64,000 nucleotides of DNA, from the NCBI RefSeq assembly GCF_004010195.1, contig NC_057752.1, positions 8,687,616-8,751,615 on the forward strand. Direction: 5' to 3'. This stretch comes from Chiloscyllium plagiosum (taxonomy: Eukaryota). A program made the translations under genes and the position numbers. Positions within the stretch are counted from its first letter, which is position 1. Each line of letters begins with the position of its first letter. This document shows positions 2,085 to 57,653 of the stretch, piece after piece. Below the pieces are notes generated by a model. It did no database searches and had not been told where the DNA came from. It saw nothing but the letters and a program-made list of their open reading frames with translations.

Positions 2085-4185
2085 GCCAAGAGGTTCTTGA
2101 GGGCATCTTGAAACCCATTGTACAGGGGACTCCCAGCTGCTGTTGTGACACTACAGATTTCTTATTGAAGCTCAGCACCCACAGACCAGACGAACCAGGA
2201 ACATTCCTTGTTACAATGGATGTTTCAGCACTCTACACCAGCATCCCCCATGACAACGGCCTCCATGACAACGGCATCACTGCAACTGCCTCAGTAGTCA
2301 ATACCAACAACTGCCAATCTCCAGGCACCATCCTACAACTCGTCTGTTTCATCCTCATCACAACATCTTCACCTTCAACAGCCAGTTTTTTTAAATCAGA
2401 CATACAGAACAGCCGTGCAGACCAAATTTGCACCTCAATATGCCAACATTTTCATGCAAAAGTTCGAACAAGACTTCTTTACTGCACAGGACCTCCAACC
2501 AACACTATATACCAGATACATTCTTCCTCTGGACCTATGACAAGGAGTCACTGAAACAATTACATAGTGATATCAATGAGGTTCATCCCACCATCAGACT
2601 CAACATGGACTACTCTCTAGTATCAGTCTCATTCTTGGACACACACATCTCCACCTCAGAACCTCACTCCACCGCAAACCCACGGATAATCTCATGATGC
2701 TACACTTCTCTAGTTTCCACCCTAAACATTAAAACAACCAGCCCCTATGGACAAGCCCTACACATACACAGGAATCTGTTCAGATGAGGAGGAATGAGTC
2801 AGACACCGGAGGGTACTGAAGGATGTCCTCATAAGAGCAGGATACAATGCTCAACTCATCGATCGCCAGTTCCGACATGCCACAGAGAGAAACTGTAATG
2901 ACCTCCTCAGGAGGCAGACATAGGGTACCCTATCGGTTGTATCCTTCGCTGTCCAGTACTTCCCAGGAGCAGAGAAACTACGCCATGTTTTTCACAACCT
3001 GCAACACGTTACCAATGAGGATGAGCATCTCGCCAAGATCTTCCCTCTGCCTCCAGTCCTTGCCTTTAAACAACGGCCAAACCTTAGACATTGTTCGCAG
3101 TAAACTGCCTAGCCTTCAGGACACACTGAACAACATACAACCCTGTCATGGCAACCACTGCAAGACATGTCAGAGCATCAACATGGATATTACCATTACA
3201 TGTGGGAACACCACCCACCATGTGCACAGCAGGTACTCATGTGACTCAGCCAACACTTCATTTCTTACGCTGCAAGCAAGGATGCCCGGAGGCATGGCAT
3301 GTTGGCGAAACCATGCAGACGCTACGACATGAATGTAAACCGCACAACAAACACCAGACAGGGATGTTCCCTCCCAATGGAGGAGCACTTCAGCAGTCAA
3401 GGACATTCAGCCTTGGATCTTTGGGTGAACGTCCAAGGTGGACTTCAGGATATGCACCAGAGTCACTGAGCAGAGGCTGTTTGCCAAAATCAGTACCCAA
3501 CTGGGGATCTTGGGTTCATATCACATTTCAGGTGACCCCACCACACTATATACACTCACAGACCTGCTCTCATACACACTCTGTCTGTCTGTCTCTCTCT
3601 CTCTCTCTCACACACACACACGCATGCACAAACTTTCACATGTGAACACACATTTTCCCTCTCTCTCACACACAGGTCTTTGGGGTGAATTTGCATTTGC
3701 AGATTTGTATTTGCAAATACATTCTATTTTTTGTTCAAAAAGCACAATGTGTAGAACAGTCAAATGTGACATTTTATAAATTCCTACATTGGAAATAAAA
3801 CAGACTCTAACCTCACACCTTTAATGCATTGTCTGAACGGAAATGCCACTTTTCTTAACACACTGATAAAACCTTAAGTTGTCTCAGGGCTGTGACTTGA
3901 AAGAAATTCTGGGACTTTAATATTAAGTCAATCGAAAGCTGCATCCCCATTCTAAGCGATTAAAGACTTAACAGCCATCTAGGTTTGTCTTAATACATTG
4001 CATCAGTTGAATGACACTTTGATCTTTTACTTATAAATTCTGTGTCCTATGTACCTCTCCCACTTGCTACTTGATGAAGGAGCAGCTTCCAAAAGCTTGT
4101 ATTATCAAATAAACCAGTTGCACCATAACCTGATGTGTGATTTTTAACTTTGTCCACCCCAGTCCAACACCAGCACTCCACATCT
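2085..4185 (+). mobile_element. Penelope-like retroelement, family A, 5'-truncated and frameshifted (RT + GIY-YIG endonuclease + 3' repeat)
   Basis: RT motif TMDVSALYTSIPHD and FFLWT; C-terminal PCHGNHCKTCQ and LRCKQGCPEAWHVGETMQTLR (GIY-YIG-like); (CT/CA)n tract at ~3580-3670; 3' repeat with a decayed hammerhead at ~4068-4100 and terminus ...ccagtccaacaccagcactccacatc. Confidence 0.9.
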
Positions 4186-4939
4186 TTTTTAACCTGGCAC
4201 CTTGTCAAATGCATTTTGGAAATCCAAGTACACAGAGCATTTACAGGCTCTTATCCACAGCATATATTACTCCTGCAAAGAATTATGACTTCCATTTCAC
4301 AGAACCAGGCCGACATTTCCCAATTATCTTGGAGTTTTAAGTGCCCAGATATAACCTCTTTAATAATCAATTCCAACACCTCCCCAATGACATACCTCAA
4401 GCTAACTGGCCTGCAGTTTCTAGTGTTCTGCCTCTCTTCCTTGAATAGAGGGATTATATTTGCTATTTTGCCACCAGACGAAACCTTTCCAAACTCTAGA
4501 TAATTGTGGAAAATTAACAGTGTATCTAACTACCTTAAGACCCAGGGACTTGACAGCCTGAAGCTCCATCAGTTTGCTCACTTTCACAGTTACTGCAGTT
4601 TCACGAAGCTCCTCTTGCTTTTATCTCCTAACTTACAAAAGTAATTGGAATGACAATAACTAAATTTTAATTAACTGAAAATGATTTTTAAAACCAAGTG
4701 GAAGCATTTACTATGCTGGTTTGTAGTCAGTTTCTTTTTTTTTTAAAAATGTTCAAAAGCATAGCTCAGTATACTATTGTGTCCAAAGAAGGTGACTAAT
4801 GTGTGGAGCCTTCACAAAGGCCTACAAAAGGTGGAAATGGAAACTTACAAATGGTGATTAATTCAATCAAGGGGTGCAGCCAGCTTCAAGCAAGATTTAG
4901 TTTAAAACTCCTTGTGCTGAAAATGTCAATCTTTTTGGA

Positions 4940-5045
4940 TGAACATGGACTGCAATGGTTCAAGGAGGTCTCCACCACCTTCTGAAAAGGCAAATCAGGG
5001 CTGGGCAATAATTGCTGGCCCAGCCAGCACCACATTCTATGAAAG
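4940..5045 (+). mobile_element. 3' end of a non-LTR retrotransposon (tail shared with the SINEs at 14657 and 47745)
   Basis: gggctgggcaataattgctggcccagccagc..cacattctatgaa matches the tails at 14820-14883 and 47975-48041. Confidence 0.55.
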
Positions 5046-6029
5046 ATTTTCACGATAACAAAGTTAAAACTCTATGCCAGGGTATTTTATACTGATGTTC
5101 ATTCAGGCCTGTGGTATCTTAAATTTCAAGTCACAGACATGATACAAATCCACACATGTGCTCTGAGTTCCATACAAAATGGCCAAATATCACTAAACCA
5201 CAGCTAGGCATCAGGCAAAGAATCAAGTCATTCTAATGTTTACCTGAAAAGATACGTTTCATAGCTCTAACCAAAAAAAAATACTATAATGCCAAGTTAT
5301 CTGTTTTCTGCTCTGCTCAAATGCATCAACCTTCTGAACAGTTAAGGATCACCAATTTGGACAGCAAAACAAGAAACTTTAATTAAATAATAAAAAAAAA
5401 GAGTTATTTGAAATTGATCGAAACCCATAGGATAAAATGAATTAAGATGGCAACATGTATGCTCCACAGAATTAAGTTGCTGCAGAGAAGTTGGAATTTG
5501 TAACAGTTTTAAAAAGACAGCATCTTCTGGAAATACCTGAAGAAAGAGTGAGAATTTGTCTAACTCTCAAATGATAATATTATTTGTGTTTACGCTCCGG
5601 AGATAATTTAAGTTCAATTAATTCAGATGCTCATCGCCTGGGAATAAAATCACTTGAGGATAAAAAAAATTACAGTTAATCATTTAGACCTGCTTTGTCA
5701 AAGCATCCACAGAAGCTATTCAAAGTGAAAGTACAGTCTACCTCCTATCCCCTCCAGATGCAAAAATCTGTCGTGAGAGCCACAATAAAAACAATTAGAT
5801 CTTATGGAAACTCTTGCTATGTACGAGTGATCATAGGCCACACATCATTCATACATGTTCGGGGGCATTAGCCTTTGGTTGAAGATTGTGTGTGGAGTGC
5901 AATGTGCAAATCCTCCATCTCAGATTATCTGCTATTTGCTACGAAACAAATCATCAAGATCATTCTGACCTGAAGAGACATCGATTATTGTAATGGTCCC
6001 ATCAAATGCTGCTTTGGCCCTACAGTTAA

Positions 6030-6182
6030 AGTTATACACTTCCTGGGTTCTGAGGAAGGGTCACCAGACCCAAAACATCAACTCTGATTTCTCTTCACAG
6101 ATGCTGCAAGATCTGCTGAGCTTTCCCTGCAACTTCTGTTATTGTTTCTGATTTACAGCATCTGTATTTGTCAGTTTTTAAT
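6030..6182 (+). mobile_element. PLE 3'-terminal fragment (family C-like) with decayed hammerhead
   Basis: ctgagga-a-gggtc-acca-gaccc-aaaacatc followed by cagatgctgc..atctgctgagc..cagcatctg tail; possible TSD tacagttaa at 6021-6029 and 6183-6191. Confidence 0.7.
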
Positions 6183-6888
6183 TACAGTTAATGCTTCTCC
6201 TAGAGCTAGGAGCCCACCTACTAATAATATCTCAAAAGAAACCTCAGATTTTCACAAAGGATATCAATCTCAGCAATGCAAATTTCATATCTTTACTAGA
6301 CAATCCTCATGCCTATTTGGGTTGCACCCTGAAATCAGGCAGTCGACTGCAAAAAACTGCATTTCTGAAACAAGACTATCAATCATTGTTAAAAACCTGA
6401 ATGTGTTAAACGCTGTCTTGGGATAAATTGTGCGAGGTAATTTCCCTAGCAACATAGCCTATAATTGCAAAATATATACTGTGACAGAATTGGGACACAC
6501 CAAAACAGCTGTTCAAGAGTTAAAGCAGCTTTGACAAATAGGCAATGTGGTAACAACCCAACAAGTAGGCTGACACAATATAGCACAGAAGATTCAAAAA
6601 CAGTAGATTACAGTGAAAACCATGAAATGGGATAACAGTGAGTTACAGGAGGCTGGATTTGAGCTGTACATTATCCACCTAATTGTTTCTTTAATTATTC
6701 CAGCATTTGCACCTCCACTGCTCTGCTCAGGAGTTCAAGAGGCTAATCCACACTGTGTGCAGAAGATTTTGCTTATTTCCTAGTTATCTTTTATTAGTTC
6801 AAACTTATGCCCCCTTTGTCTCATTTGTGGTTTACTTTAAAAGTTGCATTCCTGAGCTTTATCATTCCCTTAACTACCTTTGTTATCT

Positions 6889-7101
6889 GAAAATGCGTTG
6901 CTGGAAAAGTGAAGTAGGTCAGGCAGCATACAAGGAGCAGGAGAATCGATGTTTCGGGCATGAGCCCTTCTTCAGGAATCCTGAAGGGCTCATGCCCAAA
7001 ACGTCGATTCTCCTGCTCCTTGGATGCTGCCTGACCTGCTGCACTTTTCCAGCAACACATTTTCAGCTCTGATCTCCAGCATCTGCAGCCCTCACTTTCT
7101 C
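6889..7101. mobile_element. Palindromic non-coding PLE mini-element (family C) made of two inverted 3' repeats
   Basis: 6889-6978 is the reverse complement of ~6979-7064; perfect 15-bp TSD ctacctttgttatct at 6874-6888 and 7102-7116. Confidence 0.9.
6945..6978 (-). ncRNA. Minimal hammerhead ribozyme motif (family C); stem-III palindrome mutated ACGU>ACAU
   Basis: Minus strand reads ttc-CTGAAGA-a-gggc-tcat-gccc-GAA-acat-c-gat. Confidence 0.6.
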
Positions 7102-7429
7102 CTACCTTTGTTATCTAACAAGAATCAGCTGCAGTTCAGTGCTAGAACTTTCACCAATACATTACAAGTTTATGGGTTCAAGATGGACTCCAAAAACTTT
7201 AGAACAATATATTGGAAGGCCATAAGAATTATTTTTTTGCCATTCATTTTGTGGTCAGTAAATATATTCATAAAAGGCTGTCAATGGACTTTTAACACAA
7301 GAACATAACATTTTTATTGCATAGAAAAGGAAAATAAATACTATACAAGGATAATTTGAAACAGTCCTATTACAGGTATCAGAAAGAAAACATTTACCAT
7401 CAACAACAATGGTTAGATCCTTAACAAAT

Positions 7430-7974: not shown

Positions 7975-8390
7975 GCTAGATCCCAGACAAAAATCTGGCT
8001 TTACAGACCAGTTTTTGAAAAAAAATTAACATAGCAGTCATAGCCCAACTTATACAAACAGACTGTAACCTCACACTTAATGCATTGTCTGAGCTGAGAT
8101 GTCTTTTTTTTGAAGTTATCTCAGGACTAGGACTTGAAAGTAGTTTTGGGATTTGCATATTAATGAATCGAAACCTGCAACTCCATTCTAAGTGACTAAA
8201 GACTCAACAACAATCTAGGTTTGTTCAATACATTGCATCAGTTGTATGACACTTGGATCTTTTACTATAAAATTCTGTGTCCGATGATCCTGTCCCACTA
8301 GTTACCTGATGAAGGAGCACCCTCCAAAAGCTTGTACTTCCAAATAAACCCGTTGGACTATAACCTCATGTTCTGTGATCTTTAACTACA
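7975..8390 (+). mobile_element. PLE family A 3' repeat fragment with decayed hammerhead
   Basis: Colinear with 3790-4150; cctgatgaaggagcaccctccaaaagcttgt at 8305-8335. Confidence 0.85.
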
Positions 8391-9905: not shown

Positions 9906-10637
9906 AATAACTTCATTGCACCAGGACACCGGCTCCAACATCGTTCTTTCCCCAGTCCTGATGCCAATGCCCCAGAAATCAGAATCAATTTCTCCTACAC
10001 TAAACTCTGATCCATGCATTTACCTCTCTAATCTCATTTAACCCATGCTAATTTGTATGTGGTTCAGTTCATAATCCATACAATACCAAATTTATGGATC
10101 TGCTTTTAATATTAGTCCCAAAACTTCTTCCTAGTCCTACATTGTCATTTGTAGTTTTATGATTTGGAGATGCCAGTGTTGGATTGTGGTGTACAAAATT
10201 AAAAATCACAACACCAGGTTATAGTCCAACAGGCTTAATCGGAAGCACTAGCTTTCGGAGCGACGCTCCTTCATCAAGTGGTTGTGGAGTACACAATTGT
10301 AAGATACAGAATTTATAGCAAAAGTTTAGTTTGATGTAATTGAAATTATACATTGAAAAATACTTCGAGTTTGTTGAGTCTCTCATCTGTTAGAGTGACC
10401 AAGTTAGTTTCACTTCTTTCACATGTAAATCACAAAACTTTTAAAAGTTACATTCTGAGGTTAACTTTAACAATTGGCGTCAGCCCAGATAATATGTCGA
10501 AAGTGTTAGCCCCGTGTGGTGTTGTCTGTGCCATAATGTTTAGACTGATTCTAATCTAAAAAAAAAGTGTTTCCAGAGACTTTCATGGATTCATGCAGTT
10601 TTTGAGCAAAGTACAATGTAACTGTGCAAGTACAAAC

Positions 10638-11193
10638 AGAGAGAGAAAGAGCGAGCGAGAGCGCGCGCGAGAGAGAGAGAGAGCGAGAGCACGCGTGAGA
10701 GAGAGAGCGAGAGCGAGAGCACGCGCGAGAGAGAGAGCGAGAGAGAGAGAGAGCAAGAGCACGCGCGAGAGAGCAAGAGCGCTCGCGAGAGACAGAGAGA
10801 TAGAGCGAGAGCGCATGCGAGAGAGAGCGAGCGAGAGCGTGAGCGAGTGCGCGCAAGAGAGAGCGAGAACACGTGAGAAAGCTAGAGACAGAGCGAGAGT
10901 GCGCGAGAGAGAGCGAGAGCACGCGAGAGAGCGCGCGCGAGAGAGCGCGAGAGAGAGCGCAAGAGAGAGCGCGAGAGAGAGAGCGCAAGAGAGAGCGCGA
11001 GAGAGAGAGCGCGAGAGAGAGAGCGCGCGAGAGAGAGAGCGCGCGGGACAGAGAGCGCGCGAGAGAGCGCGAGAGAGAGAGAGAGAGAGAGCGCGAGAGC
11101 GCGAGAGAGAGAGAGAGAGAGCGCGAGAGAGAGAGAGAGAGAGAGCGCGAGAGAGAGAGAGAGCGCGAGAGAGAGAGAGAGCGCGAGAGCGAG
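10638..11193. repeat. Compound (GA)n/(GC)n microsatellite
   Basis: ~555 bp of gagagagagcgcgagaga variants, seen directly. Confidence 0.97.
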
Positions 11194-11252
11194 AATAGTG
11201 CAATGGTGGTCACCTGTAGTGAACTCAAGGTCCCGGTTGAGTCCCCCTCTAT

Positions 11253-11291
<39 letters not shown>

Positions 11292-11644
11292 GGGTGAATT
11301 TGTACTTACAGAGTTACATTGTACTTTACTCAAAAACTGCATGAATCCATGTAACACATTTTTTAAGATTAGTACTAGTCTAAACATTATGGCACAGACA
11401 ACAGCACACAGGGGGCTAACACCTTCAACATATTATCTGGGCTGACACCAATTGTTAAAGTTACATTCTCAGGTTAACTGTTAAAAAAAGTTTTGTGATT
11501 TACATATGAAAGAAGTGAAACTAACATGGTCTCTAACAGATGAGAGACTTAAACAATCGAGGTATTTTTCAATGTATAATTTCAGTTACATCACACTGTA
11601 AACGTTTGCTATAATTTGTGTCTTACAATTGTGTACTCCACAAC

Positions 11645-11679
11645 CACCTGAGGAAGGAGCAGTGTTCCGAAAGCTAGTG
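11645..11679 (+). ncRNA. Minimal hammerhead ribozyme motif (family A)
   Basis: cac-CTGAGGA-a-ggagc-agt-gttcc-GAA-AGCT-A-gtg: core, stem II, palindromic stem III, 3-bp stem I cac/gtg. Confidence 0.75.
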
Positions 11680-12721
11680 CTTCCAGTTAAAACTATTGGA
11701 CTATAACCTGGTGTTGTGATTTTTAAACTTTGCAATTTTATGGATTGCCACAATTGGTTCCTTCTCTTCCATTTCAAGTTCTCTTCTGGGCTGGAGAGAT
11801 TACCAGAACCTTGTTATCAGGTAATGAACACAACTTTTGCTCTACATCACAACGCTTTGATCAGTTTGCTCATTCTCCTTGTGGTCTGTATCCTTGTCCA
11901 CACCAGAAGCAAGGGTTATCACAGGGAAAAGGCAATGGAGAAATCAATTTTGAGGATTGGAGGCAGCATACAGAGAGGACATTTAATTGAGAAGAGTAGA
12001 TATTCAACATAATGAGGGGATGGGGAGAAGACATAGGATACTATGGTAGGGGTGAAGGGGAGGTTAGTGTTGGTCACAACTAACATGCTGCCTACTGAAT
12101 CATCACCTGAAACAAGATACTGATTCTGTGATTTGTTCCTCCCTGCTCACCCTGTTACTGTTAGTGGTTGATGTTCTGGTTGATTTCCAACAGAACCTGA
12201 AAACAGCATCACAAAAAACTCCTATGCTAATCTGATAAAAACATCTCTTCGGAGTTACGATCCATGTCCAATCTCAAATTGTGAAGTTGACCTCTCAGCA
12301 GAAATACAGTGAACAAAGTCTTTCAGGTAATCAAGTAAGTAACCAGCTGTGAAATGTCAGTACCTAAGGACACATTTTCCTGTCATATTTTTAGCCCCTT
12401 CAGTTGCTTCTGTATCCTGTATCCTGTCCCAGCAAATTCTACAAAGTGTGGAAAACCTGTGCAAACATTTAAAATTCCAAAAGCCATGTTAATCTTGCTA
12501 CAACTGAGCAAATATTAAAATTAGCAGCCCTTCGAGGGTTGTAGCTCACATATATCAAATGCACTGCAGTTAAATGCAGCTTTCCTCCATTCATTTACCA
12601 CCATAATGCAATGATACAAGTTGCTTTGAATGTGCTTCCTCAGCCTGCTGTGTTTTAAGTAATAACACTTTGTTAAAAGGATTCAGAGGGGTTGAGAAGG
12701 TTTGATTAACTTTTTTTTCCA

Positions 12722-14885: not shown

Positions 14886-15153
14886 TTACTCTACACAGAA
14901 GCAATGCGTGTATAATTGAAAATGGCTTTGGAAGCAGCTTTTAAATTAGTTTTCACCCAATTGCTGCTGTCTGAAGGAATGCTTCGTTATTTATATGCGC
15001 TCATATGTCAAAACATTAATACATGCACATATACTTGCAAATACAAAAAAAATTAGACTGACTACTGAAGCATTGAAAGATCTAGCCAAGGTGCATTATG
15101 CAAAGCCCTATATGCTGTGTCCTCTGCAGATGAATCAGATTAATTTCAGTGCA

Positions 15154-15352
15154 AAATGTGTGGTGCTGGAAAAGCATAGCAAGTCAGGCAGCATCTGAGG
15201 AGCAGGAGTCAATATTTCGGACATTTCTGATGAAGGGCTTATGCCCAAAACGCCGAATCTCCTCCTCCTCGGGTGCTGCCTGACCTGCTGTGCTTTTGCA
15301 GCATCACACATTTTGACTCTGTTCTCTAGCATCTGCAGTCCTCACTTTCTCC
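15154..15352. mobile_element. Palindromic non-coding PLE mini-element (family C)
   Basis: Inverted arms 15154-15224 and 15225-15313; perfect 14-bp TSD ttaatttcagtgca at 15140-15153 and 15353-15366; decayed hammerhead ctgatgaagggcttatgcccaaaacgcc. Confidence 0.9.
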
Positions 15353-16459
15353 TTAATTTCAGTGCAGTATATTGTGATGAGATTTGGTTTACTGTTAATC
15401 CCATATGTAAATGTTTTCAGGTATATTTCGGGACTCATTCTGCAACGTTTGTGTCTTTAATGGATCGAGGAAAGAGTTGTGAATATTGTACAAGTTAGGT
15501 TTTGTGGAGATACCCTGGATGTTAGGGAACCCCCTTCCATTGTCCTGACCACCATCTTTAAAAAAGGCTCCTGGAAATACAAAACAACTGAATGGACTGA
15601 TATGATAATGGATACAGATTCAATGGTAGCCTTTAACAACTTGACACTTCTAGAAGAAGGGTTAAAAAAAGAAATATTGAGAGAAGAGTGGAGGAGTGGG
15701 ACTAACTGCAATGCTTTTCTAAAGACTGTGTAAACCTGCGTGCATAATACAACACAGAAGGAGACAATTCAGCCTATGATTTCATTGTACACCATGACAG
15801 GAACCGTTCTTCCCTGATCCTCCTCCCACAGGATGTCAAAAGACGCCTTTCAAGTTGTCCAAATGTATTTAATGATTAATTCTCAGTAATAGCAGTGGAT
15901 TTCATTTTAAAAATAAAACTTGTCCAAACACACACCAGTTTCAGTGTGTTCTTCATGATCACCTTGCAAGTAGAAAATTACTGTGCCTACCCAGAAATAG
16001 AAACAAAAATCAAAACCTTGAAGCTCCAATAGGCCACAGACTAGGGTGTCACAGCAAACAATTCAATAACTTTTCACCTCACTCACATCCAAATCCTGTA
16101 TTAATATATCAAATGGACAGCAGGCTACAAATCTGGAAGAAATCACGCACCTCTACAGAAGAAACAATAGAGATGCCAGGAAAAACAAAAAAATTAAAAA
16201 TCCAGAAATAAGTTCAACGTTAGAATTTAAAGGTCTCAGCCTTTGTAAAGTGATCGGCTTTTTCTAAAGCTTAAATCAAATAACTGTTTACAATCCTCCT
16301 CTTAAACTTGCAACAATGTCTATTCCTCAATGCAGCAAGTTCAAAATTTCTGAAGCCAAACCCCTCCTAACTTCTGTAACTTTATTCAGCCATTTAGTCC
16401 CATGTATTCTTGGTTCTTCTTGCACAGGCCTGCCATCTTGCCCCATGTTAATTAAGAAG

Positions 16460-27049: not shown

Positions 27050-27352
27050 TCACTCTGGATGTAGGTTTGCTCGCTGAACTGGAAGGTTCATTTTCAGACG
27101 TTTTGTCACCATACTAGGTAATATCATCAGTGCACCTCTGAATGAAACACTGGTGGTGTAGCCTGTTTTCTATTTACAGGTTTGCATTTCCCAGGGTTTG
27201 TGATGCCATTTCCTGTGGTGACATCATTTTCTTTGGTGATGTAATTTCTGGTTCATTTTCTCAAGGGGTGGTAAATGGGCTCCAAGTCAATGTGTTTATT
27301 AATAGAGTTCAGGTTGGAATGCCGTGCTTCTAGGAATTCTCGTGCATGTCTC
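27050..27352 (-). mobile_element. PLE 3' fragment (family B-related) with decayed hammerhead
   Basis: Minus: AREFLEARHSNLNSINKHIDL then gca-ctgatga-t-attacc-tagta-tggtgac-aaaacgtc. Confidence 0.8.
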
Positions 27353-32634: not shown

Positions 32635-33974
32635 TTTGTGCGAAGATTTGTAGCTCGGGTGCTCGTTGTTGTGGTTCTGTTTGCCGAGCTGGAAGTTTTT
32701 GTTGCAAACGTTTCATCCCCTGGCTAGGCGACATCAGTACTTGGGAGCCTCCTGCGAAGCGCTTCTTTGATGTTTCCTCCAGTGTTTATAGTGGTCTGTC
32801 CCTGCCGCTTCCGGTTGTCAGTTTCAGCTGTCCGCTGTAGTGGTGGTTGGTATATTGGGTCCAGGTCGATGTGTTTGTTGATGGAGTTTGTGGATGAATG
32901 CCATGCCTCTAGGAATTCCCTGGCTGATCTCTGTCTGGTTTTCCCTATGATAGTAGTGTTGTCCCAGTCGAATTCATGTTGCTTGTTGTCTGCGTGTGTG
33001 GCTACGAAGGATAGCTGGTCGTGTCGTTTCGTGGCTAGTTGATGTTCATGTATGCGGATTGTTAGCTGTCTTCCTGTTTGTCCTATAGTGTTTAGTGCAG
33101 TCCTTGCATGGTATTTTGTACACTACATTCGTCTTGCCCATGTTGGGTATCGGGTCCTTCGTTCTGGTGAGTCGTTGTCTGAGCGTGGCTGTTGGTTTGA
33201 TTGCCGTTATGAGTCCTAGGGGTCGCAGTAGTCTGGCAGTCAGTTCCGAGATGCTCCTGATGTAGTGTGGCTAGTCCTTTTGGTTGTGGTATGTCCTCAT
33301 TCCTGCCTTGCTGATCTTTAAGGTAGCCAATTCTCTCTCTAGTGACCCATTTGGTCTTAATGTATTTCTAAAAACCCTTTCCCTATTCCTTACCTTATTT
33401 GCCAAAGTGGTGTCCTGTCCCCTTTTTGCCTTACTTATTTTATTCTTAAGTATACTATTCTTGCCTTTATACTCGAAGGATGTTTGTGATTTTTTGGATT
33501 GGAATAAATGCAAAATATTACATCTTGGTAAAACAAACAAGGGCAGGACTTACACTGATTAAAGGTTGGGCCTCGGATAGTGATATGGAACAAAGAGACC
33601 GAGGGGTTCTGGTCTTTGAAGTATGTGTCACATGCAGACAGGGTGGTTCAGAAGGGGTTTAGCACATTTGCCTTCTGGGACAACACTACTATCATAGGGC
33701 AATCCAGACAGAGAACAGCCAGGGAATTCCTAGAGGATTGGCATTCATCCACAAACTCCATCAACAAACACATCGACCTGGACCCAATATACCAACCACT
33801 ACAGCGGACAGCTGAAACTGACAACCAGAAGCGGCAGGGACAGACCACTATAAACACCGGAGGAAACATTAAAGAAGCGCTTCGCAGGAGGCTCCCAAGC
33901 ACTGATGATGTCACCTAGCCAGGGGACGAAACGTTTGCAACAAAAACTTCCAGCTCGGCGAACAGAACCACAAC
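32635..33974. mobile_element. Inverted PLE family B insertion enclosing CR1-derived DNA
   Basis: Minus arm 32635-33301 encodes GIY-YIG VVYKIPCKDCTKH..GQTGRQL; plus arm 33675-33974; perfect 13-bp TSD atacctttcataa at 32622-32634 and 33975-33987. Confidence 0.92.
33899..33938 (+). ncRNA. Minimal hammerhead ribozyme motif (family B)
   Basis: gca-CTGATGA-t-gtcacct-agcc-aggggac-GAA-ACGT-T-tgc. Confidence 0.8.
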
Positions 33975-34189
33975 ATACCTTTCATAACCCCAGGTTGGCC
34001 CATACTGCTTCAGAGTAATTACTTCCAAAGTTACAACCGATTTGCAGGTTGCTCCAACAAATGGATGTCCTAATAACCAATTTTTGCTGGTGTTAGTTTG
34101 GGGCAATAGGTTGGCCCAGAGATGAGTAAAATGGCCCTTCTCTTCCAATAGTGAGGTTTGAAGAGTGTCAAATCCCCAGGATCTAGCTG

Positions 34190-41029: not shown

Positions 41030-43860
41030 TGAAGAGGCTGCTCTGCCATTCATCACGACCATGGCTGATCATCCAACTCAATAGCCTAATCCTGCTTTCT
41101 CCCCATTACCTTTGATCCCATTCGCCCCAAGTGCTATGCCCAGGTGTCTCTTGAATACATTCAATGTATTAGCATCAACTACTTCCTGTGGTAATGAATT
41201 CCACAGGCTCGCCATGGTCTCATCTCCATCCTAAATGGTCCACCCAGAATCCTCAGACTATGACCGCTGGTTCTGGAGTCACCCATCATCAGGAACATTC
41301 TCCCTGCATGAAACTTGTCTAGACCTGTTAGAAGTTTAAAAGTCTCTATGAGATCCCATCCATTCATCTGAACTCCAGTGAAAACAACCGTAACCTAGTC
41401 AGTCAGTTAATCTCTTCATCCGTCAGTCCTGCCATGCCCAGAATCAGCCTGGGAAACCCTCTCTGCACTCCCTCGAGAGCAGGAGCATCCTTCCTCAGAA
41501 AAAGGAAGCCAAAACTGCCCACAATATTCTAGGTATGGCTTCACTAAGGCCTGAAGAAGGGCCTGTGCCCGAAACGTCGAATCTCCTGTTCCCTGGATGC
41601 TGCCTGACCTGCTGTGCTGTTCCAGCAATAAAGTTTCAACTTCACTAAGGCCTGTATAGCTGTAACAACACATCCCTGTACTTGTACTCAAAACCTCTCT
41701 CAATGAAGGCCAACATACCATTTGCCTTCTTTACCACCTGCTGTACCTGCATACTTACCTTCAGCAACTGGTGCACAAGGACACCCGGGTCCCGCTGCAA
41801 ACTCCTCTCCCCCCATTTACAGCCAGCCATTCAGGTAGTAAACTGACCTTCTTGTTTTTGCTTCCAAAGTGAAAAACCTCATTTATCCAAAATTAGACTG
41901 CATCTACCATTGATTTGCCCACTCACCCAAACTGTCCAAATCATGCTGAAGGATTTCTGCATCCTCACAGTTCACCCTCCCACTTAACTTTCTACAGTCT
42001 CCAAACTTTGAGATGTTACATTTTGTTCCTGCATCCAAAATCATTAATATACATTGAGCAGCTGGGGTTCTAGCACCAATCCCTATGGCACCATTAGTTA
42101 CTGCTTGCCAATTTGAAAAAGGACCCATTAATTTCTACTGTTTCCTATCCATCTCAATATATTTCCCCCAAACCGATGTGCTTTAATCTTGCACAATAAT
42201 CTTTAACGTCGGACTTTTGACAAACGCTTTCTGAAAGCCCAAATATACCACATCGATGAGCTCCTCTTGTCAACTCTATTAGCTGCATCTTCATAGAATT
42301 CCAACAGCATGATTTTCCCTTCACAAATCCATGGTGACTGTCTGATTTTGCCACTGCTTTCTAAATGCTCCGCTATAAAGTCCTTGATAATGGATTTGAG
42401 AACATTTCCCACTACCGATGTTAGACTTGCTGGTCTATAATTCTCTGGTTTCTCTCTACCTCCCTTTTTGAATATTGGAGTAAGATGAACTACCCTCCAA
42501 TCTGTAGGGAGTTTTCCAGAGTCTACAGACTCCTGGAAGATGACCACCTGTGCATCTACTATTTCTAGAGCCACTTCCTTAAATACTCTGGCATATAGGT
42601 AATCAGGCCCTGGGAATTTATCTGCCTTCAATCCCACCAAATTTTCCCAGCACCATTTCTCCACTATTATTGATCTCCCTCAGTTCTTCCCTCTCACTAA
42701 AGCTTGCGTTCTCCAACATTTCTGGTATCTGGTTTGTGTCGTCTTTTGTGAAGAGAGCCAATATATGTATTTAGTTGCTCAGCCATCTCATTGTCTCCGG
42801 TTATATATTCCCCTGTTTGTCTGTATTGGGCTGACATTTGTTTTCCCTAATCTCTTCCTCTTTAGGTATCTAAAGAAACTCTTAGTGTCAGTCCTTATTT
42901 ACCCTGCAAGCTTACTTTCATACTGTATTTTCCCCTTCTTAATCAATCCCTGGGTCCTTCTTTGCTGAATTCTAAACTGCTCCCAATCCTCAGACCTTTT
43001 TTTGGTCAATCTACATGCTTCTTCATTGGATCAGATATGGTCTCTATTTTCCTTTGTAATCCATGGATTGGCCCTCTTACCAATGTTGCTTTTGTGCTGG
43101 ACTGGACAAGAATAAAAGTTGTTCCAGTTCCCCCATGCACTCCTTGAATGTTTCCCATTGCCTATCCACTGTCATCCCTTTAAGTAACTCTCCCAAATCT
43201 ATCAAGGCCAACTCAAGCCTCATAACTTCATAGTTTCCTTTAAGATTCAGCATCCTTGTTGCTGAAACAACTATTTCACTCTCCATCTTGATAAACAAAT
43301 TCTATGTATGGTCTCTTATCCCCAAGGGGTCTTGCACAGCCAGATTGGTAATGATTCCCTTCTCACTACACAGTACCCACTAAGATGGCTTACTCTCTAG
43401 CTTGTTCTTCCACATATTGGTCAAGAAAACCATCCTGTATACACTCCAGGAATTCTTCTTCTACATCATTGTGGCCAATTTGATTTGCCCAATCAGTGTG
43501 CAGATTAAAATCACCCATGATCAGATATTCCCTTATCACATGCATCTCTAATTTCCTGTTCAATGCCATTTCCAACATCACCACTGAGGTTTGGGAGTCT
43601 ATATATGACACCCACTAACATTTTTTTTGCTCTATGGCATTTCTCAACTCTCTCCATACAGACTCCACATTATCAGAGCTAAGATCCTTTTTCACTATTG
43701 TGAGAATTTCCTCTTTAACCAGCAATGTCACTCCACCACCTTTTCCTTTTTGCCAGTCCTTCTTAAATACTGAATACCCAGGATGTTCAGTTCCTATCTG
43801 TGATCACCCTGCAGCCATGTGTCCGTAATCCCAATCATATCGTACCCATTTACATAAATC
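41030..43860 (-). mobile_element. CR1 LINE, decayed ORF2 (APE + RT) and 3' UTR
   Basis: IMGDFNLH, PGPDYLYARVFKE, PIFKKGGREKPENYRPASLTSVVG, KKANGMLAFIERG. Confidence 0.95.
41551..41639 (+). mobile_element. ~86-bp PLE family C micro-insertion (hammerhead core plus short 3' repeat)
   Basis: CTGAAGA-a-gggc-ctgt-gccc-GAA-ACGT-C; perfect 15-bp TSD cttcactaaggcctg at 41539-41553 and 41640-41654. Confidence 0.88.
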
Positions 43861-51051: not shown

Positions 51052-52455
51052 AGGTAGACAGGCAGGAGGCTGGAAGAACACAGCAAACCAGGCAGCATCA
51101 GGAGATGGAGAAGTCGACGTTTCAGGTGTAACCCTTCTTCAGGGCTGGGGGTGGGTGTGGGGGGAGCTGCAGATAAAGGGGGTGGTGGGGGCAGGGAATA
51201 GGTGAAGACAGGTAGAGGGTACAACCNNNNNNNNNNNNNNNNNNNNNNNNNNNNNNNNNNNNNNNNNNNNNNNNNNNNNNNNNNNNNNNNNNNNNNNNNN
51301 NNNNNNNNNNNNNNNNNNNNNNNNNNNNNNNNNNNNNNNNNNNNNNNNNNNNNNNNNNNNNNNNNNNNNNNNNNNNNNNNNNNNNNNNNNNNNNNNNNNN
51401 NNNNNNNNNNNNNNNNNNNNNNNNNNNNNNNNNNNNNNNNNNNNNNNNNNNNNNNNNNNNNNNNNNNNNNNNNNNNNNNNNNNNNNNNNNNNNNNNNNNN
51501 NNNNNNNNNNNNNNNNNNNNNNNNNNNNNNNNNNNNNNNNNNNNNNNNNNNNNNNNNNNNNNNNNNNNNNNNNNNNNNNNNNNNNNNNNNNNNNNNNNNN
51601 NNNNNNNNNNNNNNNNNNNNNNNNNNNNNNNNNNNNNNNNNNNNNNNNNNNNNNNNNNNNNNNNNNNNNNNNNNNNNNNNNNNNNNNNNNNNNNNNNNNN
51701 NNNNNNNNNNNNNNNNNNNNNNNNNNNNNNNNNNNNNNNNNNNNNNNAGCAGTGGAATGGGGAATGGAGGTGGTGTGGTGGAGGCTTGTCTTGATGACAG
51801 AGGGCGAAAAACCATGTTGTTCAAAATAGGTGGATATCTGGAGTGGAATGTTTCGTCAGAACGGATGCAGAGAAATTGGGAAAACAGGATCGAGTTCTGT
51901 CAGGATACTGGGTGGGAGGAGGTGTAGTCCAGGTAGTTATGGAAGTCTGTGGGTTTGTAGTAAACGTCAGTCCGTAAACTGTCACTGAAGATAGAAATAG
52001 AGGGGTCAGGAAAGGGGAGGGAGGTGTCCGAGATGGACCAAGTGAATTTAAGGGCAGGTGGAAGTTGTGGGCCAAGTCGATGAACTGCTCCAGTTCAGCC
52101 TGGTTGCAGGACATTGCACCGATGCAGTCATCAATGTAATGGCATTAGAGTTGAGGCACAATGCCTGTGTAGGTACTGAAGAGGGACTGTTCAACATAGC
52201 CAAAGAGGCAGGCCCATCTTGGTGCCCATGGCCACTCTCCTGGATTTGGAGCAAATGGGAAGAGTTGAAGGAAAAGTTGAGGGTAAGGACCAGTTCGACT
52301 GTGTGGAAGAGGTTATTGGTGGAGGGGAACTGGATGGGTCTGTTGGAGAAGAAGACATTGAGAGCCATCCTTAGGGGAATGGATGTGTATAAGGACTGCA
52401 CGTCCATAGTGAAGATAACACGCTGGCGGCCAGGAAACTGGAAGTTACTGAAGAG
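51052..52455 (-). mobile_element. Coding PLE of the family C lineage, spanning an assembly gap
   Basis: Minus: MDVQSLYTSIP, HYIDDCIG (RT catalytic motif); 3' repeat with ctgaagaagggttacacctgaaacgtcgac at ~51114-51143. Confidence 0.88.
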
Positions 52456-53416
52456 GTAACTTCAGTATTACCAACTTAATTGAGTTCTTTGGAGGAAGTG
52501 ACCAAATTGATAGATTAAAGAAGGGCTGTTATATACATGGTCTTTAGTAAGGCGTTTGATAAGGTTCCCCATGGTAAATAGAGAAAGTGAAGTCACATGG
52601 TGTGCAGGGTGTTCTAGCTAGTTGGATAAAGAACTAGTTGAGCACTAGGAGACAGTTGTAGTTGAAGGGAGTTTCACAAAATGGAGAAAGGTGACCAGTG
52701 GTGTTCCACAAGGATCAGTGCTGGGGCCACTTTGTGATATACATAAATGATCTGGAAGAGGGCACAGTTGGTATGATCAGCAAGTTTGCAGATGACAAAG
52801 AAGATTGGTGGAGTAGCAGAAAGCATAAAAGACTGTCAAAGATTACAGGAGAATATAGATAGACTGGAGAGTTGGGCAGAAAAGTGGCAGATGGAGTTCA
52901 ATCCAGACCAAATGTGAGGTGATGCATTTAGGCAAGTCTAATTCTAGAGCAAATTATACAGTGAACAGAAGAGCCTTGGGAAAAGTTGATGGGCAGAGAG
53001 ATCTGAGAGTGCAGGTCCATTGTACCCTGAAGGTTGCTGCACAGGTGGATAGAGTGGTCAAGAAAGCATATGGTATGCTTGCCTTCCATTGGACAGGGTA
53101 TTGAGTATAAGAGCTGGCAGGTCATGTTAAAATTGTACAAGATATTGGTTCGGCTGCATTTACAGTGTACAGTTCTGGTCACCACATTACCAAGAGGACG
53201 TGGACGCTTTGGAGTGGGTGCAGAGAAGGTTTATGAGGTTGCCTGGTATGGAAGGTGCTAGCTATGAAGAGAGGTTGAGTAGGTTAGGTTTGTTTTCGTT
53301 AGAAAAAAAAAGTGATTGAGGGGGAATCTAATTGAGGTTTACAAAATCATGAAGGCTTTACAAAGTTAAAAATCACACAACATCAGGTTATAGTCCAACA
53401 GGTTTAAGTGGAAGCA

Positions 53417-53451
53417 CACTAGCTTTCGGAGCGACGCTCCTTCATCAGGTG
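53417..53451 (-). ncRNA. Minimal hammerhead ribozyme motif (family A), intact core
   Basis: Minus: cac-CTGATGA-a-ggagc-gtc-gctcc-GAA-AGCT-A-gtg. Confidence 0.82.
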
Positions 53452-54877
53452 ATTGTGGAGGGCTCGATCGTAACACAGAATTTATAGCAAAAATCTGCAG
53501 TGTGATGTAACTGAAATTATACATTGAAGAATTGATTGTCTGTTAAGCCTTTCATCTGTTAGAATACAGTGATAGTTTCACTTCTTTCACGTGTAAATCA
53601 CAAAACCCTTTTTTTTTAAAGTTGCATTCTCGGGTTAGCGGTTAACAATGGTGACAATATGTTGAAGGTGTTAGCCCCCTGTGTTCTGTCTATGGCCTGA
53701 TGTTTAGATTGATTCCAATCTAAAAAGTGAAATAACAGAGTTTTACATAAATTCATGCAGTTTTTGAGTTCAGAGTGTGACATGAATCTATGTGGTTTTT
53801 GAGCAAAGTGCAATGTACCTCTGAAAGTACCAAAAAAAATTCACCACACACAATATATGTGTACTTCCCAGGGGCTGAAAAATTGCACCATGTTCTTCGT
53901 GACCTGCAACACATTATCAATGAATTTGAGCACCTCACCAAGACCTTCCCCACACCTCCACTACTTGCCTTTAAACAACCGCGCAAAGTGCAATGTACCT
54001 CTGAAAGTACCAAAAGAAATTCACCACACAATATATATGTGTACTTCCCAGGGGCTGAAAAATTACGCCATGTTCTTCGTGACCTGCAACACATTATCAA
54101 TGAATTTGAGCACCTCACCAAGACCTTCCCCACACCTCCACTACTTGCCTTTAAACAACCGCCAAACCTCAAACATTGTTCGTAGCAAACTGCCCAGCTC
54201 TCAGGACAACTCCATACAACCCTGTCACGGTGGACGCTGCAAAACGTGTCAGATTGTGGACATAGATACCACTATTACGTGTGGGAACACCTCCCACCAT
54301 GTACATGGCAGGTACTCATGTGACTCAGCCAACATTGTTTATCGTATACGTTGCAGGCAGGGATGCACAGAGGCATGGTACATTGGGGAAACTGAGCAAC
54401 GGCTATGACAACGGATGAATGGGCACCGCACAACAACCAACAAACAGGGGGGTTCCCTCCCAGTTGGGGGACACACGCGCACACGCACACACTTCTTTTG
54501 GTACTTTCAGAGGTACATTGCACTTTGCTCAAAAACCACATAGATTCATGTCACACTCTGAACTCAAAAACTGCATGAATTTATGTAAAACACCGTTATC
54601 TCACTTTTTAGATTGGAATCAATCTAAACATCAGGCCATAGACAGAACACAGGGGGCTAACACCTTCAACATATTGTCACCATTGTTAACAGCTAACCCG
54701 AGAATGCAACTTTTTAAAAAAAAGGGTTTTGTGATTTACACGTGAAAGAAGTGAAACTATCACTGTATTCTAACAGATGAAAGGCTTAACAGACAATCAA
54801 TTCTTCAATGTATAATTTCAGTTACATCACACTGCAGATTTTTGCTATAAATTCCATGTTACGATCACCTCCACTAT

Positions 54878-54912
54878 CACCTGATGAAGGAGTGTCGCTC
54901 CGAAAGCTAGTG
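54878..54912 (+). ncRNA. Minimal hammerhead ribozyme motif (family A), intact core
   Basis: cac-CTGATGA-a-ggagt-gtc-gctcc-GAA-AGCT-A-gtg (G-U wobble in stem II). Confidence 0.8.
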
Positions 54913-56874
54913 TGCTTCCACTTAAACCTGTTGGACTATAACCTGGTGTTGTGTGATTTTTAAACTTTGTACACCCCAGTCCAACACCGGCAACTCCGAA
55001 TCATGAAAGCTTTAGACAGGGTAGATAGAGATAAGCTTTTTCCCCCAGGGTGAGGGGCTCAATAATGAGAGGTCACACTTTCAAGGTGAGAAGTGAAAAG
55101 TTTAAGGGGGATACACACGGCAAGTACTTTACAGAGGGTGGTGGGTGTTTGGAACACGTTGCTAGCAGAGGTGGTAGAGGCAAGCACGGTAGATTCATTT
55201 AAGATGCATCTGGACAAATGCATGAGTAGCATGAGTAGGTGGGGAGCAGAGGGATACAAATACTTAGGAATTGGGTGACAGGTTTAGACAGTAGATTTGA
55301 ATCAGCTCAGGCTTGGAGGGCAGAAGGGCCTGTTCCTGGGCTGTAAATTTTCTTTGTTCTTCATTCTTTATTCTAGGTGGAGGGCATGGTTGGTGTTGCG
55401 GATGTGGGTGGGATGTGCCTGAACCAAGGGGGAGAGGATGGAGTTGAGGTAGGACATGATGAGTTCAGAATAACTCTAGGCTGGTATCCTGTATCCAAGT
55501 CACCCTTTGTTTACATGTGCATAGTGGTTGACACTAGTCTAGCTACAAAGCCACCATTCAATGAGCAGAACCTATGATACTCCTGTTTCTGTCAGCCAGG
55601 GCTCCCTAATTTGGGGCTGTTTAAATCTGGTCCAATCAGGGAACTCCTATTCTAAGAGGCCCACCTGGCTGACCTTTTTACAAATACTTACATCCCTCCC
55701 ACTAAGTCCAGGAATGTAGGCCTATTCTTTTTCTTGTAGTCTCTCCTTCAGAGTTTATGCACCAGCTCTGGTTCCTCGAACTGTCCCGATACGGACAGCA
55801 TGTACTGGACCATAGCCCGCCTCTTGCTCCCAGTGTCTTAAAAGAAATTCATCCACTTCTTCAGGTAGTAAAGGTGTTGAGGCTGTGACATTTGTCATGT
55901 CCATTAGACTCAGGTTTCTTCATGCTAGATGGATGGGGAGAACCCATGGGTTCAGACAGCCTTTCCAGCTGTTCTGAGAAGCCTGGATATGTTTTATTCC
56001 AGCCCCATTTGCGAATTTGCAGCTTTCATATGGTCCACATGTTTGTCCAAGTCTTCTCCATTAGCAACTCTGCTGGAGCCATCCTCATAATTGCATAAAG
56101 GGTGGACCTATAATCAAATTGAAAGTGGGACAGTTTGGTATTGAGTAAGCTGTAGGTCATTTCTATAAGCCAGCCTTCAAAGTTTGAACTGCTCTTTCAA
56201 CAAGACCATTGGATGGATGGATGGTATGGACTTGTCCTTATTAGGACAAATGCCATTCGACTTCAGGAAATACTAAAATATGCTGCTGGTAAATGGCCCA
56301 TTGTCTGTGACCACCATTTCCAGGAGTCTGTGTATTGCAAAAGACAGTTTTTCTATCATCCCAGTATTTGATTAATGAACTTGATGCACATTCAGCCACA
56401 GAGTGGGTGTTCACAATGACCAAGAATTTTGAGCCCATGAAAAGGACCTGCATAGTCCACGTGTAACTGAATCCAGGGTTTAACTGGCCATTCTCACAAA
56501 AGGGGGCAGAGAGCTGCTGGTGGGAACTTTTGTCCTTGTTGGCACTCTAGGCACTGCTCCACCAATTCGGCTATGCCTGCATCCAATCCTGGCCATCAGA
56601 CGTAACTTCTTGTCAACATCTTCATTTTGGACACCCCTGGATGACCCTGATAGGGTTTGACCAGTATCTTTGCTCAACACAATCACCCTCGCTCTCCATA
56701 CTAAAATGCTGCCCTCCACAGTAATCTGGTCTCATTAGATCCAGAAAGATTTCCATTCTGGTTGTGATGACCTTTTGTTTCCTGATTACCACCAGTTGTT
56801 TTACCAGGACCAGGTCTGTGCGTCCACAGTCAGTTATTGCTGTGGTTCTGTTCGCCGAGCTGGAAGTTTTTGTT

Positions 56875-56914
56875 GCAAACGTTTCGTCCCCTGTCTAGGT
56901 GACATCCTCAGTGC
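56875..56914 (-). ncRNA. Minimal hammerhead ribozyme motif (family B)
   Basis: Minus: gca-CTGAGGA-t-gtcacct-agac-aggggac-GAA-ACGT-T-tgc. Confidence 0.8.
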
Positions 56915-57613
56915 TTGGGAGCCTCCTGTGAAGCGCTTCTGTGGTGTTTCCTCTGGCATTTATAGTGGCCTGTCCCTGCCGCTTCCGGTTGTCAGTTTCA
57001 GCTGTCCGCTGTAGTGGCCGGTATATTTGGTCCAGGTCGATGTGTTTGTTGATGGAGTTTGTGGATGAGTGCCATGCTTCTAGGAATTCCCTGGCTGTTC
57101 TTTGTTTGGCTTGAGACACAACAAACAGTGAGACAAAGTATCGTACCCCTGATAACAAGGAAAAGACAAACACATAACCTCAACACCAAGGAGAGGGAAG
57201 CACTAAAATCACTAAGAAACGATAAGAACATAATCATACTACCAGCAGACAAAGGCAGAATGACGGTCATTCTGGACAGAGCAGAATACACCCAAAAAGC
57301 ACAACTACTTGCAGATACCAACACCTACCAAAAGTCGAATTCACGTTGCTTGTCGTCTAAGTCTGCGCAGACGACAAGCAACATGAATTCGACTGGGACA
57401 ACACTACCATTATAGGGCAAGCCAAATAAAGAACAGCCAGGGAATTCCTAGAAACATGGCACTCATCCACAAACTCCATCAACAAACATCAACCTGGACC
57501 CAATATACCAGCCACTACAGCGGACAGCTGAAACTGACAACCGGAAGCGGCAGGGACAGGCCACTATAAATGCCGGAGGAAACACCACAGAAGCACTTCA
57601 CAGAGGCTCCCAA

Positions 57614-57653
57614 GCACTGAGGATGTCACCTCGACAGGGGACGAAACGTTTGC
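57614..57653 (+). ncRNA. Minimal hammerhead ribozyme motif (family B)
   Basis: gca-CTGAGGA-t-gtcacct-cgac-aggggac-GAA-ACGT-T-tgc. Confidence 0.8.

What the first reader, a model, noticed from the sequence alone, without database searches (positions are those of the whole stretch)
4068..57653. About 17 minimal, probably dimer-dependent hammerhead ribozyme motifs from three PLE lineages on both strands
Seen: the fold stemI-CUGANGA-(extra A/U)-stemII-GAA-[4-nt palindrome]-H-stemI recurs in three sequence-unrelated families. A: AGCU-A (4071, 8306, 10246-, 11648, 53417-, 54881). B: ACGU-U (27094-, 32704-, 33902, 56875-, 57617). C: ACGU-C (6050, 6945-, 6981, 15227, 41551, 51114-). Stems differ between families yet still pair, which is structural conservation. 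Established: PLEs carry minimal type I hammerheads whose palindromic stem III favours dimeric cleavage. Inference: at this density (about one per 4 kb) any transcript crossing the region would carry several same-strand, same-family motifs able to pair, and families B and C share the ACGU palindrome, so cross-family heterodimers are conceivable.
Basis: partly seen in the sequence, partly recalled or inferred. Interest (0 to 1): 0.72.

Follow-up and report, generated by a model that had tools for sequence, protein, structure and literature searches.

The report
Decayed Penelope hammerheads, no cross-family dimers
The motifs are real but mostly decayed copies of the miniature hammerhead (predicted self-cutting) RNA that Penelope-type jumping genes are already known to carry; they are no denser here than elsewhere in this shark-like genome, cannot pair across families, and likely work only between the two ends of the element's own transcript.

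Summary
[quoted passage not shown] This is the minimal type I hammerhead described in PMC4209133. Only 8 of 17 keep both catalytic boxes and the palindrome, and only 6 also keep a 3-bp stem I; CpG decay explains most losses. The 17 come from 12 insertions. Density is ordinary (20 remnants seen, 19.6 expected); three exact patterns match 125,986 times genome-wide. Stems covary across subfamilies (67 of 72 cells paired). More interesting: short A and C copies start at a fixed base 8 or 4 nt before the core, often behind a non-templated G (likely the cap), and family-A RNAs are polyadenylated 29-32 nt after the cut site. So hammerheads likely lie at both tips of the element's mRNA, copied mostly uncut. 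The scan noted the cap signature before, in this and other genomes. Cleavage was not shown.

The parts
1949..4184 (+). Old family-A PLE remnant: broken RT, linker Zn-finger, GIY-YIG and pLTR; hammerhead 4071-4098 broken (C3>U, G12>A)
6050..6079 (+). Hammerhead remnant of subfamily D (own stems); G12>A, palindrome lost
6888..7103 (.). One family-C fold-back insertion with about 12-bp target duplication; motifs 6948-6975 (-, palindrome ACAU) and 6981-7005 (+, core deletion and G12>A)
8056..8389 (+). Old family-A pLTR; hammerhead 8306-8333 with G12>A; TATA-like box at -40; AATAAA in tail
10155..11735 (.). Family-A inverted pair (85% identical arms): 10249-10277 (-, C3>U) and 11648-11676 (+, complete)
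15153..15353 (.).
27056..27339 (-). Older B subfamily pLTR; hammerhead 27097-27130 with G12>A
32628..33982 (.). Family-B inverted pair (94%) with 13-bp target duplication and GIY-YIG C-terminal remnants: 32707-32737 (-, core deletion) and 33902-33935 (+, complete)
41539..41654 (+). Short family-C insertion between 15-bp target duplications (41539-41553, 41640-41654); core 41551-41578 intact but the 5' strand of stem I is host DNA
51069..52461 (-). Subfamily E element: broken RT (52461-51748), assembly gap, pLTR with core 51116-51142 intact but 1-bp stem I
53359..55006 (.). Young family-A inverted pair (96%) with about 16-bp target duplication and linker/GIY-YIG remnant (54033-54474): complete motifs 53420-53448 (-) and 54881-54909 (+)
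54921..54941 (+). Family-A poly(A) signal position (mutated in this copy) and the poly(A) addition sites seen in reads from other copies at 54938 and 54941
56826..57729 (.). Young family-B inverted pair (96%) with 11-bp target duplication: complete motifs 56878-56911 (-) and 57617-57650 (+); the AUG at the start of stem II is in frame with the PLE ORF

Best explanation
The 17 motifs are terminal-repeat (pLTR) remnants of 12 Penelope-like retrotransposon insertions carrying the known minimal type I hammerhead, now decaying with no sign of selection, and the ribozyme likely acts only as a homodimer between the two pLTR copies of the element's own transcript. Shown: PLE context, motif anatomy, decay pattern, same-strand motif pairs 2.3-2.5 kb apart around an ORF in fuller elements, failure of cross-family stem I pairing, fixed 5' ends with a G excess in A and C, and poly(A) tails 29-32 nt after the family-A cut site. 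Inferred: transcription starts 8 nt (A) or 4 nt (C) before the core, so the RNA begins with one hammerhead and, in A, ends just after the other. The RT primes in the tail behind the 5' hammerhead, as shown in vitro for the anole element PAc, and mostly copies uncut RNA up to the cap. Two priming sites give the short-tail/long-tail inverted pairs. Cleavage is probably weak and protein-assisted; it was not shown here.
For: PLE proteins beside the motifs: A has RT, a CX4CxxC linker and GIY-YIG; C loci have the same linker (L086); B has a GIY-YIG C-terminus and DKG motif. Fuller elements L215 (A, motifs 2,517 nt apart) and L216 (B, 2,267 nt apart) hold same-strand pairs around the ORF. Neutral decay in family C from the 0.96-Mb sample: core CpG positions 147 of 704 changed against 18 of 263 for G5 and G8 (p 5e-8); G5/G8 6.8% against tail G 4.7% (p 0.16); core A 2.9% against tail A 4.4% (p 0.14). 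Covariation across subfamilies: 67 of 72 cells paired, shuffle mean 42.3, 0 of 10,000 shuffles reach it; with five lineages 37-38 of 40. 5' ends: 102 of 224 C copies end between -10 and +5 of C3, about 18 between -54 and -11. Base before the fixed start is G in 65 of the 100 listed of 3,172 C matches (A 18, T 17, my tally) and 77 of the 100 listed of 395 A matches, 29 of 32 when the letter before that is A (my tally). TATA-like box 35-40 nt above C3 in 6 of 6 A copies. Poly(A) tails at 54938 (263 reads) and 54941 (315 reads) in run X19. All 6 inverted pairs have one short-tail and one long-tail arm. PMC11167929: internal priming at two sites, uncut RNA the dominant substrate, hammerhead active only with protein.
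Against: No cleavage or dimer was observed: no pile-up of read ends at the cut site (the library cannot hold the short products well). The double-hammerhead fold is not the minimum-energy state even for homodimers (1.1-9.5 kcal/mol above the monomer sum). The transcription start is inferred from DNA only. Fold-back junctions can supply a G (reduced, not removed, by the pattern prefix), and a stall of the RT at that base is not excluded. Family B shows no 5' pile-up near the core (42 of 45 copies run on upstream). Intact cores are 2.4-fold enriched in the window (8 against 3.3, Poisson p 0.019). The covariation shuffle ignores relatedness, and the Cb majority was mis-called as Ca in that script.
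Confidence: 0.8

Rival explanations
1. Dispersed motifs dimerise, within or across families, in host read-through transcripts and cut them.
For: B and C share the ACGU palindrome (4 of 4 stem III pairs); two complete same-strand homo-pairs exist; family C RNA reads run in both directions; A1-A2 and Ca-Cb subfamily pairs are compatible.
Against: B-C stem I is 0 bp at both cores. Partners are 24-43 kb apart while antisense copies lie 0.7-1.4 kb away. Neutral decay. Near-zero RNA depth on the unique stretch 55759-56521 in about 2% of one run. Even tandem dimers cut poorly in print: low activity in PMC4209133; 1 of 9 Xenopus dimers active in 10.64898/2026.07.22.740005.
Confidence: 0.04
2. The hammerheads do cut the element RNA in vivo at an appreciable rate, and part of the genomic copies were made from cut RNA and so begin at the cut site.
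For: 596 family-C copies have three non-template letters directly before the cut site against 254 at a control offset 4 nt downstream; 10 of 12 inspected cut-site loci are unique-flank or fold-back junctions; the core is conserved across diverged lineages.
Against: Many of the 100 listed prefixes are explained by a 2-nt GA microhomology (fold-back junctions, core-skipping deletions) or by small deletions. Only 12 of 224 sampled C copies start at +0 to +3 of the tail. PMC11167929 found no reads ending at the PAc cut site.
Confidence: 0.3
3. The motif is kept mainly for another role at the transcript's 5' end (promoter or initiator, start-codon context, protein-binding fold), and self-cleavage is marginal.
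For: It overlaps the inferred start site in A and C and the in-frame AUG in B. Hammerhead mutants do not affect PAc insertion in vitro (PMC11167929). Naiads proliferate without hammerheads (PMC8557442).
Against: All catalytic bases, G10.1-C11.1 and a palindromic stem III are kept across all subfamilies with compensatory stems, which is hard to explain without catalysis; PAc mutants C3G and G8C lose cleavage and the double mutant partly rescues (PMC11167929).
Confidence: 0.2
4. The roughly 90-130 nt copies are an independent SINE or retrozyme family with its own circular RNA cycle.
For: Very high numbers of short copies with target duplications (41551; 12 of 32 non-fold-back short C copies).
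Against: They lack the upstream promoter-like region, are identical to the ends of ORF-bearing elements, and are not tandem arrays in the window.
Confidence: 0.06

Closest known systems
[quoted passage not shown]
   Same: Type I fold, extra base between A9 and G10.1, G10.1-C11.1, palindromic stem III, several consensus families per genome, mostly single truncated copies, pairs on opposite strands 100-700 bp apart, dimer requirement.
   Different: Shorter stems here (stem I 2-4 bp, stem II 4-7 bp). At least 125,986 exact intact cores against about 4,000 (coelacanth) and 9,000 (Xenopus) reported there, with different search methods. Sharks are not named in the parts read.
PAc, Poseidon element of Anolis carolinensis, Frangieh et al. 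2024 (PMC11167929; parts 1-2 of 4 read)
   Same: Family B has the ORF AUG at the start of stem II, an AC-rich tail and two tail ends; uncut junctions are copied.
   Different: A and C are Neptune/Nematis-type, with the A ORF starting after the long tail (L215). The parts read do not place the transcription start or a poly(A) site at the hammerhead.
EN+ PLE insertion architecture, Craig et al. 2021 (PMC8557442; passages)
   Same: 5'-truncated copies, partial tandems forming pLTRs, adjacent inverted copy, 30-40 bp tail at one end, CX2-5CxxC linker in Neptune/Nematis and absent in Poseidon.
   Different: Nothing structural; the fixed 5' end with extra G is not in the passages read.
Drosophila virilis Penelope promoter, Schostak et al. 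2008 (PMC2377424; passages)
   Same: Transcription starts within the pLTR.
   Different: There the promoter is TATA-less and internal; here A and B have a TATA-like box upstream.
Non-LTR retrozymes (10.64898/2026.07.22.740005; parts 1-3 of 5 read)
   Same: PLE-pLTR-derived type I hammerheads, reported in one cartilaginous fish.
   Different: Retrozymes are head-to-tail tandem arrays; the window's copies are single or inverted.

Membership tests
PLE minimal type I hammerhead | CUGANGA and GAA boxes, extra base before stem II, G10.1-C11.1 | tested here: met
   All subfamily majorities; 8 of 17 individual copies
PLE minimal type I hammerhead | Palindromic 4-nt stem III | tested here: met
   AGCU or ACGU in all majorities; 14 of 17 copies
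PLE minimal type I hammerhead | Compensatory variation in stems I and II | tested here: met
   Between subfamilies 67 of 72 cells paired. Within family C, changes look like decay: 56 single changes break a stem II pair, 40 keep it; 6 of 13 double changes keep it
PLE minimal type I hammerhead | Located in the pLTR of an RT/GIY-YIG element | tested here: met
   L215 and L216 hold two same-strand motifs around the ORF
PLE minimal type I hammerhead | Self-cleavage as a dimer | not testable with these tools
   Indirect tests were inconclusive
Rfam hammerhead families | Score at gathering threshold | tested here: not met
   0 hits in the window at gathering; no hammerhead family among 7 hits at E up to 10 in 53000-58000
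Neptune/Nematis-type PLE (A, C) | CX2-5CxxC linker before a C-terminal GIY-YIG | tested here: met
   A: window 54172-54405 and P0001; C: L086. No tree was built, so Neptune and Nematis were not told apart
Penelope/Poseidon PLE (B) | C-terminal GIY-YIG without linker Zn-finger; DKG motif | tested here: inconclusive
   L055 ORF shows GIY-YIG with no linker cysteines in the part seen; DKG in L216; AUG position as in PAc; no phylogeny; clade label partly recalled
Cross-family double hammerhead (B-C) | Stem I pairing between the 5' strand of one motif and the 3' strand of the other | tested here: not met
   0 bp at both cores for B with Ca, Cb and Cc
Non-LTR retrozyme | Head-to-tail tandem units, each with a hammerhead | tested here: not met
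   No such array among 10 Tandem Repeats Finder rows or in the self-comparison

The most novel reading that the evidence does not exclude
In shark Neptune-type PLEs the hammerheads are the first and last ~35-60 nt of a capped, polyadenylated mRNA. Their end-to-end dimer strips cap and tail and yields a circle, the only template on which an RT primed in the 5' tail can run on into the ORF. Uncut RNA gives only the ~100-nt cap run-off stubs, which make up a large part of about a million remnants. The ribozyme would thus be the switch between dead stubs and long copies.
Probability: 0.25. Interest if true: 0.7.

Novelty: new member of a known kind. Interest (0 to 1): 0.3.

Why it matters
As stated, the finding repeats a 2014 result in a new host, and its new idea (heterodimers, cutting of host transcripts) fails on base-pairing. 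The side result bears on an open question, what PLE hammerheads do: a fixed capped start just before the core and a poly(A) site just after the cut give exact, testable RNA ends and predict a circle junction. The genome also holds on the order of 10^5 intact cores, well above the vertebrate counts in PMC4209133, which makes it a large natural record of PLE insertion junctions.

Tried and rejected
Rfam finds no hammerhead; I read this as the minimal motif being outside those models. Pfam did not recognise any of 9 PLE fragments; it gave only a weak RVT_1 hit on L215 and nothing for 9 candidate host-gene frames, so no host gene was identified. No RNA holder was listed for 54400-58000; run X20 gave 0 reads (no test); X1 is only guessed to be RNA and was not used. 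Reads of X19 come mostly from other copies (42 of 2,627 at 99% or more). The cut-site footprint test was inconclusive. My first guess of a 5-bp stem I for family C was wrong: it came from a fold-back junction (6981); the majority has 2 bp (Ca, Cc) or 4 bp (Cb). A Naiad assignment for C was rejected because a C locus has the linker and GIY-YIG just upstream of the pLTR. Nearest-neighbour energies do not separate homo- from heterodimers; the argument rests on stem I pairing. Lunse et al. (RNA Biol 14:1499) was not available; I saw only its title and two reviews citing it, so its counts, species and any heterodimer tests are unchecked. Supplements of PMC4209133 and of the preprint were not seen and may list shark motifs. 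No covariance model and no RT tree were built.
Full report
Observation. All 17 sites exist. A strict descriptor (CUGANGA, stem II of 3 bp or more, GAA, palindromic A-N-N-U, H) finds 8 in the window against a mean of 0.04 in 200 Markov controls. A per-copy audit shows nine broken copies: G12>A in six, C3>U in two, box-1 deletions in two, palindrome loss in three, some with two defects. G12 is the general base (PMC6155905, passages). Of the eight intact cores, 41551 and 51142 have a 1-bp stem I; at 41551 the 5' strand is host DNA inside a 15-bp target duplication. Six motifs are complete. Rfam does not detect them.

What they belong to. Family A lies behind RT, CX4CxxC linker and GIY-YIG remnants (1949-3532; 54033-54474); the 12 homologues found include named proteins from carpet sharks. 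A family-C locus shows the same linker type (L086), and 51142 follows a broken RT. Family B follows a GIY-YIG C-terminus, and its AUG at the start of stem II is in frame with the ORF of the fuller copy L216, the arrangement reported for PAc (PMC11167929). Per PMC8557442 (passages) the linker marks Neptune/Nematis and is absent in Poseidon; I built no tree. Ten of the 17 motifs lie in five inverted pairs, and 15227 has a partial inverted arm. Five of these six structures have clear 11-16 bp target duplications, so the 17 motifs are 12 insertion events. All six have one short-tail and one long-tail arm, matching the two RT priming sites of PAc.

Abundance. Exact intact patterns match 20,232 (A), 8,408 (B) and 97,346 (C) times in the 3.56-Gb genome, with 0 for reversed controls. 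In 100 fixed-offset stretches from the 40 largest contigs (961,498 non-N bases), profile search gives 299 remnants and the strict descriptor 50 cores. That extrapolates to about 1.06 million remnants and 178,000 cores. The window has 20 remnants against 19.6 expected, so its density is ordinary. Its 8 intact cores against 3.3 expected (p 0.019) is a mild excess in a window chosen for this feature.

Structure conserved between lineages, decaying within copies. Across nine subfamily majorities, 67 of 72 stem cells pair (shuffle mean 42.3; 0 of 10,000 reach it; 37-38 of 40 with five lineages). Examples: I.1 is C-G, A-U or U-A; I.3 is G-C in B and U-A in old B; II.4 is G-C, C-G, U-A or A-U. The shuffle ignores relatedness, and the Cb majority collapsed into Ca in that script. 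Within family C, CpG positions of the core change at 21% against 7% for G5 and G8, and non-CpG catalytic bases change like tail bases. C11.1-G12 is a CpG in every family, so methylation-type decay likely disables most copies (inference). There is no sign of selection on dispersed copies.

The dimer inference. In a double hammerhead the two palindromes pair antiparallel, so each core joins the GAA side of one motif to the H17 side of the other, and stem I forms between motifs. This follows from the geometry described in PMC4209133 and was built explicitly. A shared ACGU is therefore not enough: B with any C subfamily gives 0 bp of stem I at both cores; A with B gives 0, A with C gives 1 plus a mismatched stem III. 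Only subfamilies of one family are compatible. Complete same-strand pairs in the window are A 11648/54881 (43 kb) and B 33902/57617 (24 kb); the minus strand has none. Each complete motif has an 85-96% identical antisense copy 0.7-1.4 kb away. The pairs point outwards, so the antisense arm is transcribed first in either direction, and folding pairs 25-33 of the 29-34 hammerhead bases to it. No host gene was identified, and the unique stretch 55759-56521 has almost no RNA reads in about 2% of one run, a weak test. The natural partners are seen in fuller elements: same-strand motifs 2,517 nt (L215) and 2,267 nt (L216) apart around the ORF.

Where the ribozyme sits on the RNA. 5' ends of A and C copies pile up just before the core: 102 of 224 C copies between -10 and +5, about 18 between -54 and -11, 37 longer. 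Among copies with near-intact cores, 36 of 60 A and 85 of 122 C extend 14 nt or less upstream, but only 2 of 45 B. The C position (-4) lies in an initiator-like YYANWYY (consensus recalled); the A position (-8) is about 30 nt below a TATA-like box. The base before it is G in 5 of 5 (A) and 9 of 11 (C) held copies. Genome-wide it is G in 65 of 100 listed of 3,172 C matches (binomial p 1e-15 against base composition) and in 77 of 100 listed of 395 A matches. The first pattern excluded the commonest fold-back G; the second did not fully, but 29 of 32 matches preceded by A still show G. I read this as reverse transcription of the cap (inference). In run X19 (poly(A) single-cell library, same species label), family-A reads lie mainly in PLE sense and carry poly(A) tails at 54938 (263 reads) and 54941 (315), 12-15 nt below an A(A/U)UAAA position and 29-32 nt past the cut site. 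Depth is continuous across the cut site with no end pile-up in A, B or C. These reads come from other copies, and the library would miss a 30-nt cut product. Because this poly(A) site lies before both tail ends, long A copies need read-through RNA, a template jump or a circle (inference). Starts at the cut site (596) exceed a control offset (254), but microhomology and small deletions explain many of the listed cases, so this is inconclusive.

Comparison with print. PMC4209133 (parts 1-2 read) describes this motif class, its opposite-strand pairs and low dimer activity. PMC11167929 (parts 1-2) shows internal priming, uncut templates and protein-assisted cleavage. PMC6765202 and PMC6466107 (passages) review the tandem-dimer model; PMC2377424 (passages) places the Drosophila start in the pLTR. 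Searches for shark PLE hammerheads and for a capped start at the ribozyme returned no paper whose listing states it; the library is incomplete and Lunse et al. was not available. Several unreviewed notes of this scan report the same cap run-off reading in this and other genomes. I had noted the start-site pile-up before that look-up; they are not independent support.

Verdict. Interest 0.3, carried by the transcript-end evidence and the copy number.

Noticed in passing
window 54921-54941 (family A tail): Family-A pLTRs carry a used poly(A) signal; with tens of thousands of copies they could end host transcripts. The window's young copies have it mutated; 4071 and 8306 keep AATAAA.
   Followed up: partly
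window 54955-54990 and family C tail near 7055-7090: Tails of A and C contain branch-point/pyrimidine/CAG-like stretches resembling a 3' splice site; PLEs are known for a 5' UTR intron. Seen by eye only.
   Followed up: no
L193, L194, L198: Recurrent fold-back copies in which the whole hammerhead core appears skipped through a 2-nt GA microhomology, possibly RT jumping across the folded core.
   Followed up: partly
window 53803-54166: 180-bp tandem duplication at the centre of the young A inverted pair; (AG)n or (AC)n runs lie inside the 10155-11735 pair and the 1949-4184 element.
   Followed up: no
window 57333-57394: Short perfect fold-back at the junction of the two B arms, which gives chance miRNA-like Rfam scores.
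   Followed up: partly
window 9221-9791, 29198-30278, 38379-39598, 46453-49425, 52470-53355, 59834-60893: Many CR1/L2-type LINE fragments (RVT_1 hit at 29332-30033; type label recalled), often next to PLE ends.
   Followed up: no
window 20649-24044: Broken L1/Tx1-like LINE (endonuclease PF03372 at 21345-21761, weak zf-RVT at 23697-23975).
   Followed up: no
   Followed up: partly
family B stem II, e.g. window 57628 and 57639: Young B has an A-G or G-G mismatch where old B has A-U; the stem lies within the ORF's first codons, so coding constraint may explain it.
   Followed up: no
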